A stretch of 6,101 nt of DNA from a virus (lineage: Duplodnaviria; Heunggongvirae; Uroviricota; Caudoviricetes): IMG/VR virus record IMGVR_UViG_2534681978_000014. One strand, written 5' to 3'. Numbering within the stretch: the first letter of the stretch is position 1; each line of letters opens with the position of its first letter. The translations under genes and the position numbers were made by a program. The notes under the pieces are model-generated. The model worked only from the letters and a program-made list of their open reading frames with translations, was not told the origin of the DNA and made no database searches. Below, in pieces: positions 5,572-5,628 of this stretch.

Positions 5572-5578
5572 CACGTTA

Positions 5579-5600
5579 TCAGGCCACCATGGTGGCCTGA
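5579..5600 (+). promoter_or_regulatory. Perfect 22-bp palindrome (TCAGGCCACCATGGTGGCCTGA) in the D-E intergenic region; potential RNA hairpin (9-bp GC-rich stem, 4-nt loop) or dimeric protein-binding site
   Basis: Checked base by base: 5579-5587 pairs perfectly with 5592-5600, with loop CATG at 5588-5591. It starts 8 nt after the D stop and ends 28 nt before the E start. The downstream sequence CTGATTTCTG is only weakly U-rich, so it is not a canonical strong intrinsic terminator. Confidence 0.45.
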
Positions 5601-5628
5601 CTGATTTCTGAATGAAAGGAACTGATTT

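What the first reader, a model, noticed from the sequence alone, without database searches (positions are those of the whole stretch)
5572..5628. Perfect 22-bp palindrome centred on CCATGG between the decoration-protein and major-capsid genes
TCAGGCCACCATGGTGGCCTGA (5579-5600) is a perfect inverted repeat occupying most of the short D-E intergenic space. As RNA it would form a stable 9-bp stem with a 4-nt loop immediately 3' of D. It lacks a strong U-tract, so it is more likely an mRNA-stability or processing element (a 3' protective hairpin or RNase III-type site) or a partial attenuator tuning D:E expression than a full terminator. As DNA, a perfect palindrome of this length could also be a site for a dimeric DNA-binding protein. 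Perfect 22-bp palindromes are unlikely by chance in a 6-kb window.
Basis: seen in the sequence. Interest (0 to 1): 0.4.

Follow-up and report, generated by a model that had tools for sequence, protein, structure and literature searches.

The report
Terminator-type RNA hairpin after decoration gene
The 22-bp palindrome is real. It is the phage-21-family version of a stem-loop found between the head-decoration and major-capsid genes of lambda-like phages, where it normally looks like a transcription terminator, so it is an ordinary element rather than a new one.

Summary
TCAGGCCACCATGGTGGCCTGA (5579-5600) is a perfect palindrome, expected about 0.0015 times per window by chance. As RNA it folds into a 9-bp stem with a 4-nt loop (-16.4 kcal/mol).

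The window is a phage-21-type head module: shp/D at 5224-5571 and gene 7/E from 5629. Apart from one Aeromonas phage whose two genes abut, every lambda-like head module examined carries a GC-rich hairpin at this spot. These include lambda, N15, Gifsy-1, prophages of Kluyvera, Buttiauxella, Enterobacter and Cedecea, and a Vibrio phage.

- **Shape in relatives:** outside the 21 lineage the hairpin is followed at once by a T-rich run on the sense strand (6-8 T in 10 nt, an unbroken T7-8 in most). GenBank annotates the N15 copy as a putative rho-independent terminator.
- **Covariation:** across 35 distinct versions 96% of stem cells pair, and 5 of 9 pairs show compensatory changes. The loops vary freely in sequence and length.
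- **The 21 lineage:** it is the outlier. The stem is kept (diversity about 9 times lower than at third codon positions) but the U-tract has decayed.

Best reading: a sense-strand RNA hairpin descended from an intra-operon intrinsic terminator. It is now at most a leaky terminator, and probably also acts as a 3'-protective structure. An RNase III site, a DNA-binding site and shielding of the E ribosome-binding site are not supported. Novelty is low.

The parts
5224..5571 (+). Head decoration protein gene (phage 21 shp, lambda D homologue), including the TAA stop at 5569-5571
   Evidence: ORF list. About 94-99% protein identity to the phage 21 and PhiR5_1 decoration proteins and 51% to lambda gpD.
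5579..5600 (+). Perfect 22-bp palindrome, which forms an RNA hairpin: stem 5579-5587 paired with 5592-5600, loop 5588-5591 (CAUG)
   Evidence: for sequence and folding. Covariation over 35 distinct homologues is.
5601..5610 (+). Degenerate U-tract CTGATTTCTG. It holds 5 T in 10, and none directly abuts the GC core of the stem.
   Evidence: The tail score is -2.4 to -2.0, against -4.1 to -5.6 in other lineages. T counts are 5 of 10 here against a mean of 7.3 of 10 elsewhere. The lenient pattern scan still lists the site as terminator-like.
5617..5620 (+). Ribosome-binding site (AGGA) of the major capsid gene
   Evidence: The position corresponds to the RBS annotated in M81255 (locus offset 4899).
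5629..6101 (+). 5' part of the major capsid protein gene (phage 21 gene 7, lambda E homologue), which runs off the end of the window
   Evidence: 97% identity to phage 21 gp7 over the part present.

Best explanation
The palindrome encodes a sense-strand RNA hairpin in the late (head-gene) mRNA. It is the phage-21-lineage descendant of an intra-operon intrinsic terminator that follows the decoration gene throughout lambda-like head modules.

**Shown**
- The hairpin is present at this position in every lineage examined that has an intergenic gap, with compensatory stem changes and freely varying loops.
- Outside the 21 lineage a T-rich run (6-8 T in 10 nt, an unbroken T7-8 in most) follows directly on the sense strand.
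- In the 21 lineage the stem is retained and is much less polymorphic than synonymous sites, while the U-tract is degraded.

**Inferred**
- RNA polymerase that has not been modified by the phage Q antiterminator would terminate here only weakly. The element would thus be a leaky insulator against transcription that did not start at the late promoter.
- Q-modified polymerase reads through during lytic growth.
- The hairpin then persists in the mRNA just 3' of the D cistron, where it can also block 3'-to-5' exonucleases.
For: - **Position and shape:** GC-rich hairpins sit in the D-E gap of lambda, Gifsy-1, N15, Perceval, EcoM-783R5, Vibrio phage ST2-1pr and prophages of eight or more enterobacterial genera.
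- **Homology:** an intermediate lineage (L265, TATCAGGCCGC-ACA-GCGGCCTG-TTCTGTTTTT) shares the flank TATCAGGCC and the arm GGCCTG with the window. It differs by a G:C to A:U swap at the second pair from the loop.
- **Covariation:** on 35 distinct versions 96.2% of cells pair, against 82% in shuffles and at most 51% when the partner is slid. Five of 9 pairs have changes on both sides. The covariation score is 0.477 against 0.225, reached by 0 of 500 shuffles. RNAalifold predicts the same helix.
- **Sense orientation:** 27 non-21 versions have a mean of 7.3 T in the 10 nt after the GC core, and T exceeds the upstream A count in 25 of 27.
- **Prior annotation:** the N15 record marks the homologous stem-loop as a putative rho-independent terminator.
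- **Operon-wide pattern:** in lambda and phage 21 most gaps of 40 nt or more in the late operon hold a strong hairpin: all four in phage 21, and five of seven in lambda (none at -10 kcal/mol or below in J|lom or orf401|orf314).
- **Constraint in the 21 lineage:** stem diversity is 0.0086, against 0.07-0.08 at third codon positions and 0.198 in the loop. Of 107 haplotypes, 101 keep an intact stem of at least 8 bp.
- **Literature:** intra-late-operon terminators are described in lambdoid phages, with roles stated as not known (PMC8022706).
Against: - The U-tract here is poor. The curated phage 21 record annotates terminators after genes I and J but nothing at this site.
- Continued constraint on the stem after loss of the U-tract argues that termination is not the only selected function, and perhaps not the main one.
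- The constraint test has little power: 16 sites with 3 segregating, against about 6 expected at the third-position rate.
- The sequences in the covariation alignment are related and were centred on predicted hairpins, so the shuffle statistics overstate significance.
- No transcript data were available.
Confidence: 0.55

Rival explanations
1. Termination-independent mRNA stability or processing element. After read-through, endonucleolytic cleavage (for example by RNase E) in the AU-rich spacer CUGAUUUCUGAAUGA leaves a D-containing fragment whose 3' end is protected by the hairpin. With the second conserved hairpin after E, this would raise the functional life of the cistrons for the two most abundant head proteins.
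For: - The stem is conserved in the 21 lineage although the U-tract has decayed.
- A second, independent hairpin follows E in all lineages, often with UUCG or GNRA loops.
- The hairpin forms with probability near 1 in context.
- GA|UUU at 5603-5607 fits the RN|WUU preference of RNase E (own knowledge). Such a match is common by chance.
Against: - A pure stabiliser needs no U-run, yet a sense-oriented T-rich run (unbroken T7-8 in most) is kept in all other lineages.
- There is no transcript evidence.
- The hairpin lies between two genes needed in similar amounts, so differential stabilisation of D over E has no obvious benefit.
Confidence: 0.3
2. A decaying relic. The terminator lost its U-tract in the 21 lineage, and the remaining stem has no function and simply has not yet eroded.
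For: - The U-tract is the weakest of all lineages.
- Stem-breaking variants exist: 6 of 107 haplotypes, plus a degraded version in E. coli ECMA0423 and S. flexneri.
- Many copies sit in prophages, which may be defective.
Against: - Stem diversity is about 9 times lower than at third codon positions, while the loop is hypervariable.
- 94% of haplotypes keep the stem.
- The module is present in 1865 of 5426 complete E. coli genomes with the region 90-99% identical.
Confidence: 0.1
3. A DNA-level site: a perfect dyad recognised by a dimeric DNA-binding protein, or shaped by restriction-modification pressure.
For: - The two common perfect-palindrome alleles differ by a symmetric double change at the centre (CCGCGG against CCATGG). 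Those positions cannot pair in an RNA hairpin.
- No single-step intermediates were seen among 107 haplotypes.
Against: - The palindrome is unique in the phage 21 genome and half-sites occur at chance level (window).
- Among relatives the spacing between arms varies from 3 to 6 nt and the loops are not self-complementary.
- Stem changes are compensatory rather than sequence-preserving.
- The AT-centre allele is essentially one clade, meaning one historical event.
- A common third allele (GCGT) breaks the dyad.
Confidence: 0.03
4. An RNase III processing site, or a structure that keeps the ribosome-binding site of E accessible.
For: It is a stable helix in an intercistronic region, 16 nt upstream of the RBS.
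Against: - The 9-bp stem is well below the roughly 20 bp usual for E. coli RNase III substrates (established knowledge).
- Predicted accessibility of the E Shine-Dalgarno and initiation region is the same for the wild type (0.33 / 0.49), for 60 shuffles of the palindrome (0.36 / 0.47) and for its deletion (0.31 / 0.48).
Confidence: 0.02

Closest known systems
Stem-loop between N15 gene 7 (decoration) and gene 8 (major head), annotated in GenBank AF064539 at 5980-6004 as 'putative rho-indep. transcription terminator', and the equivalent lambda D-E hairpin (NC_001416 6097-6118)
   Same: Same genes on each side, same strand and the same kind of GC-rich stem of about 9 pairs. The core is related (GGCCGC/GCGGCC against GGCCAC/GTGGCC) and is linked through intermediates.
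   Different: N15 and lambda have an uninterrupted T7 run directly after the stem, whereas the window has CTGATTTCTG. The window's stem is more stable (-16 against -12 kcal/mol). The hairpin also starts closer to the stop codon: 7 nt, against 17-29 nt.
Intra-late-operon terminators of lambdoid (P22-like) phages, as discussed for phage L (PMC8022706)
   Same: Both are terminator-shaped hairpins inside a single antiterminated late operon, next to the procapsid gene module. The proposed roles are partial termination or stopping transcription that lacks antitermination, and the roles are stated as not known.
   Different: The head module is different and not homologous, and those sites were predicted as full terminators. 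The one here fails a U-tract criterion.
Intercistronic 3'-protective hairpins of polycistronic mRNAs, for example the REP hairpins of malE-malF (own knowledge, not tested here)
   Same: A stable stem-loop just 3' of a highly expressed cistron, able to block 3' exonucleases.
   Different: It is not a REP sequence, occurs once per prophage, and descends from a terminator-shaped element. No decay intermediates have been shown.
Q-dependent processive antitermination of lambdoid late operons (Q21; Yin et al. 2019, as cited in PMC8022706 and in record OL657228)
   Same: This gives the context in which internal terminators are read through. Phage 21 carries a Q gene, a Q-binding element and a late promoter.
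   Different: The window contains none of these parts, so the link is contextual only.

Membership tests
Intrinsic (Rho-independent) terminator | GC-rich hairpin with a stem of about 5-14 bp and a loop of 3-8 nt | tested here: met
   9-bp stem with 6 G-C pairs, 4-nt loop, -16.4 kcal/mol.
Intrinsic (Rho-independent) terminator | U-rich tract directly after the stem | tested here: not met
   The tail is CTGATTTCTG. Its TransTermHP-style score (formula from memory) is -2.4 to -2.0, against -4.1 to -5.6 for homologues. It has 5 T in 10, none adjoining the GC core. It passes only the lenient pattern scan and is not annotated in the curated phage 21 record.
Intrinsic (Rho-independent) terminator | Measured release of transcripts 7-9 nt after the stem | not testable with these tools
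   No transcript data are available. Needs in vitro transcription or Term-seq.
Conserved hairpin between the decoration and major capsid genes of lambda-like head modules | Located in the gap between the D and E homologues, on the sense strand | tested here: met
   Position 5579-5600, between 5571 and 5629.
Conserved hairpin between the decoration and major capsid genes of lambda-like head modules | Helix conserved with compensatory changes, loop unconstrained | tested here: met
   96.2% of cells pair and 5 of 9 pairs show changes on both sides. The loops are 3-6 nt long with many different sequences.
Conserved hairpin between the decoration and major capsid genes of lambda-like head modules | Sequence continuity with other members | tested here: met
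   It shares TATCAGGCC...GGCCTG with the L265 group and the core GGCC.C/G.GGCC with the lambda and Gifsy-1 types.
Conserved hairpin between the decoration and major capsid genes of lambda-like head modules | T7-8 run after the stem | tested here: not met
   The 21 lineage is the outlier.
RNase III processing site | Double-stranded RNA of about two helical turns (about 20 bp) | tested here: not met
   Only 9 pairs, with no extension in longer folds. The length criterion comes from established knowledge.
Operator-type palindromic protein-binding DNA site | Fixed half-site spacing and sequence conservation among relatives, usually with further copies in the genome | tested here: not met
   The site is unique in phage 21 and half-sites occur at chance level. 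Spacing varies from 3 to 6 nt and stem changes are compensatory.
Curated RNA families (Rfam 15) | Match to a covariance model | tested here: not met
   No hit at 5572-5628 even at E-values up to 10.
Intercistronic mRNA-stabilising hairpin | Decay intermediates that end at the hairpin, and a half-life that depends on the stem | not testable with these tools
   Only the structural prerequisite is shown.

The most novel reading that the evidence does not exclude
The hairpins after D and after E are kept for a termination-independent purpose. They would punctuate the 26-kb late mRNA into differently stable segments around the two most abundant head proteins. The 21 lineage, where the U-tract is gone but the stem is still constrained, would be the natural experiment that separates the two functions. 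A weaker variant is that the centre of the dyad (CCGCGG against CCATGG) is shaped at the DNA level, for example by avoidance of a CCGCGG-specific restriction system while the stem is preserved.
Probability: 0.15. Interest if true: 0.45.

Novelty: new member of a known kind. Interest (0 to 1): 0.2.

Why it matters
The hairpin shows that a terminator-shaped structure after the decoration gene, and a second one after the major capsid gene, are near-universal parts of lambda-like head modules. The roles of such intra-operon terminators are still described as unknown (PMC8022706). The phage-21 lineage keeps the stem but has lost the U-run, which makes it a convenient natural variant for asking whether termination or RNA stability is the selected function. 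Beyond that, this is an ordinary regulatory stem-loop in a prophage module carried by about a third of complete E. coli genomes.

Tried and rejected
- **Rfam:** a scan of the whole window at E-values up to 10 gave nothing at the site.
- **Shielding of the E ribosome-binding site:** predicted accessibility is unchanged when the palindrome is shuffled or deleted.
- **DNA-binding site:** there are no further copies or enriched half-sites in the window or in the phage 21 genome.
- **Recurrent origin of the AT-centre allele**, which would have hinted at templated mutation or selection for dyad symmetry: it is essentially one clade, with 2 parsimony changes and within-allele distance 9 against 23 between alleles.
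- **Strand bias of wobble pairs:** 23 G.U cells against 4 A.C cells. Most G.U cells involve the T-run, and in the stem core the counts are about 7 against 4, so this is not decisive.
- **Covariation among close relatives alone:** divergence is too low, and only single stem-breaking variants and loop alleles are seen.
- **Second viral-contig scan with the protein alignment:** it returned only close relatives.
- **Literature on the lambda D-E hairpin or the phage 21 shp-7 gap:** nothing specific was found in the held library. Two papers requested by PMC id were not held.

Full report
**Observation.** Window 5579-5600 reads TCAGGCCACCATGGTGGCCTGA and is its own reverse complement. The next longest perfect palindrome in the window is 10 bp. 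One of 2000 dinucleotide-preserving shuffles reached 22 bp, and the analytic expectation is 0.0015. As RNA it folds into a 9-bp stem with a CAUG loop, at -16.4 kcal/mol, z = -4.15, with 0 of 200 shuffles as stable. In a 271-nt context the pair probabilities are 0.90-1.00. The same hairpin forms on the minus strand, but the tail there, UAACGUGUUACGG, is not U-rich. A lenient pattern scan lists the site as terminator-like, with tail CTGATTTCTG. Rfam has no match.

**Context.** The window is 96% identical to the head-gene region of phage 21 (M81255, OL657228) and many related Escherichia phages.
- The genes are terminase large subunit (165-1913), a W-like gene (1897-2103), portal (2100-3692), protease/scaffold (3682-5187), shp/D (5224-5571) and gene 7/E (from 5629).
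- The 57-nt D-E gap is the largest non-coding stretch in the window.
- The region occurs in 1865 of 5426 complete E. coli genomes.

**Close relatives.** Phage 21 itself has TCAGGCCACCGCGGTGGCCTGA, also a perfect palindrome. The 107 distinct haplotypes of this lineage divide as follows.

| Variant | Haplotypes |
|---|---|
| CGCG centre (perfect palindrome) | 49 |
| CATG centre (perfect palindrome, the window's type) | 22 |
| GCGT (top pair lost, giving an 8-bp stem) | 26 |
| Rare variants | 10 |

- Of the ten rare variants, six break the stem.
- The CATG allele is essentially one clade, so it reflects one historical event.
- In 86 aligned haplotypes, nucleotide diversity is 0.0086 in the 16 stem positions outside the closing pair, 0.198 in the loop, and 0.071-0.077 at third codon positions of D and E.
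- The stem therefore looks constrained and the loop free, although the number of sites is small.

**Distant relatives.** Every lambda-like head module with a D-E gap that I examined has a GC-rich hairpin there.

| Source | Hairpin (5' arm - loop - 3' arm and tail) |
|---|---|
| lambda | AAAGGCCGC-CTGT-GCGGCTTTTTTT |
| N15 | AAAAGCCGC-CTGC-GCGGCTTTTTTT |
| Gifsy-1 | AAGGCCGC-GAAG-GCGGCCTT |
| Vibrio phage ST2-1pr | CAGGCGCTGC-ATATC-GTAGCGCCTGTTTT |

- Prophages of Kluyvera, Buttiauxella, Klebsiella, Phytobacter, Dryocola, Enterobacter, Kosakonia and Cedecea carry one too, as does phage EcoM-783R5.
- Only Aeromonas phage PhAER-5, whose two genes abut, lacks it.
- An intermediate group (L265 and others, D 72-77% identical) has TATCAGGCCGC-ACA-GCGGCCTG-TTCTGTTTTT. 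It shares its flank and outer stem with the window, which establishes homology. The 21-type differs by a G:C to A:U swap at the second pair from the loop.
- The N15 GenBank record annotates its copy as a 'putative rho-indep. transcription terminator'.
- The richly annotated phage 21 record marks terminators after genes I and J but nothing at this site.

**Covariation.** I aligned 35 distinct versions (A2) and scored the 9-pair helix.
- 96.2% of cells form standard pairs, against 82.2% in shuffles and at most 51% when the 3' partner is slid.
- Five of 9 pairs have changes on both sides (46 cells).
- The covariation score is 0.477 against 0.225, reached by 0 of 500 shuffles.
- RNAalifold predicts the same helix on its own.
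- Caveats: the sequences are related and were centred on predicted hairpins.

**Orientation and terminator shape.** In 27 non-21 versions the 10 nt after the GC core hold a mean of 7.3 T, starting at once. T exceeds the upstream A count in 25 of 27. The element is therefore oriented with late transcription and has the shape of an intrinsic terminator. The 21 lineage is the outlier, with ACTGATTTCT (5 T, none adjoining). Its TransTermHP-style tail score (formula from memory) is -2.4 to -2.0, against -4.1 to -5.6 for the others.

**Operon-wide pattern.** In lambda and phage 21 most late-operon gaps of 40 nt or more contain a strong hairpin. These are D|E, E|FI and I|J in both phages, J|stf in phage 21, and L|K and lom|orf401 in lambda. 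Lambda's J|lom and orf401|orf314 gaps show none at -10 kcal/mol or below. A separate hairpin after E is present in all lineages with an intact E gene, often with UUCG or GNRA loops and a U-rich tail. Intra-late-operon terminators are recognised in lambdoid phages, and their roles are stated to be unknown. The suggested roles are partial termination, or stopping transcription that began without antitermination (PMC8022706).

**Alternatives tested.**
- DNA-binding site: the palindrome is unique in the 42.9-kb phage 21 genome and is its longest. Half-sites occur at chance frequency. Arm spacing varies from 3 to 6 nt in relatives.
- RNase III: the helix is only 9 bp.
- Shielding of the E ribosome-binding site: predicted accessibility does not depend on the palindrome.
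- No sigma-70-like promoter lies nearby.

**Mechanism.**
- Shown: a conserved sense-strand helix of terminator ancestry, a weak U-tract in this lineage, and a constrained stem.
- Inferred: unmodified RNA polymerase terminates here only weakly, and Q-modified polymerase reads through. Phage 21 carries the Q gene, the Q-binding element and the late promoter, though none of them lies in the window. The hairpin then remains in the mRNA as a possible barrier to 3' exonucleases.
- My estimates: about 0.55 for a leaky terminator or insulator with a secondary protective role, 0.3 for a primarily stabilising or processing element, 0.1 for a functionless relic, and 0.05 for the DNA-level, RNase III and RBS ideas together.

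**Novelty.** This is a new member of a known kind. The homologous element is already annotated in N15 and the class is discussed in the literature. Neither phage 21 record examined (M81255, OL657228) annotates this copy, and nothing in the papers I could search describes its decayed U-tract.

Noticed in passing
window 5585-5594 (centre of the palindrome): The window allele reads GCCACCATGG, which happens to equal the vertebrate Kozak consensus and contains an NcoI site. The phage 21 allele has CCGCGG (a SacII/Eco29kI-type site) and the third common allele, CCGCGT, has neither. The two perfect-palindrome alleles differ by a symmetric double transition, and no intermediates were seen among 107 haplotypes. 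The CATG allele is one clade.
   Followed up: partly
L050 about 1580-1699 (IMGVR_UViG_2648501784_000004): The sequence departs from the family 6 nt after the palindrome (..CTGATT|GTGCACAGAAAACCCCCAGC..). The new sequence is a multi-copy element, with up to 35 places per E. coli genome and copies on plasmids too. It is most likely an insertion-sequence end inserted between the hairpin and the capsid-gene RBS.
   Followed up: partly
L280 7389-7409 (phage 21) and L281 7163-7180 (lambda); outside the window: A second conserved terminator-like hairpin follows the major capsid gene in all lineages examined with an intact E gene. It often has UUCG or GNRA tetraloops (GGCCC-TTCG-GGGCC, GGCCC-GTAA-GGGCC) and a U-rich tail.
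   Followed up: partly
window 4481-4508, + strand: This is the strongest local hairpin in the window: 11 pairs, -22.2 kcal/mol, z = -3.9. It lies inside the protease/scaffold gene, about 77 nt upstream of the internal start of the scaffold protein (window about 4585). It is also the strongest hairpin in the phage 21 late region. A weak Rfam hit on the minus strand (CC0196, E = 1.8) overlaps it.
   Followed up: no
window about 4792-4902 and 4933-5046: Record M81255 annotates 'Tri box' and 'Tri3 box' repeat regions inside gene 6 with 'function unknown; putative'. Record OL657228 marks CII-binding-site pattern matches on the minus strand at window about 4590-4603 and 4824-4837.
   Followed up: no
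L095-L113, L115, L122, L124, L126, L128 (genome contigs): Plain lambda DNA (D 100% identical) turns up on short, low-coverage contigs in assemblies of unrelated organisms such as Pseudoxanthomonas, Neobacillus, Bradyrhizobium, Enterococcus and Akkermansia. This is almost certainly laboratory or spike-in contamination.
   Followed up: no
MT713136.1 250152-250396 (Aeromonas phage AP1, 254 kb) against window 5628-5872: A 245-bp stretch 97% identical to the start of this E. coli-type capsid gene sits near the end of a jumbo Aeromonas phage record, with no annotation. It looks like an assembly chimera or contamination.
   Followed up: no
window 5492-5501: GCTGGCCTGA inside the decoration gene (codons for the conserved W-P-E) resembles the 3' arm GGTGGCCTGA with one mismatch. 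It could in principle pair with the 5' arm of the palindrome. The count is no higher than chance once the palindrome itself is set aside.
   Followed up: no
L085, L086 (E. coli ECMA0423, Shigella flexneri SFBU1023), D-E gap: A degraded version of the hairpin, TCAGGTCACTGCGGTAGCCTGA, has one U.G pair and one C.A mismatch in the stem. It sits in a module whose D protein is 91% identical to the window's.
   Followed up: no
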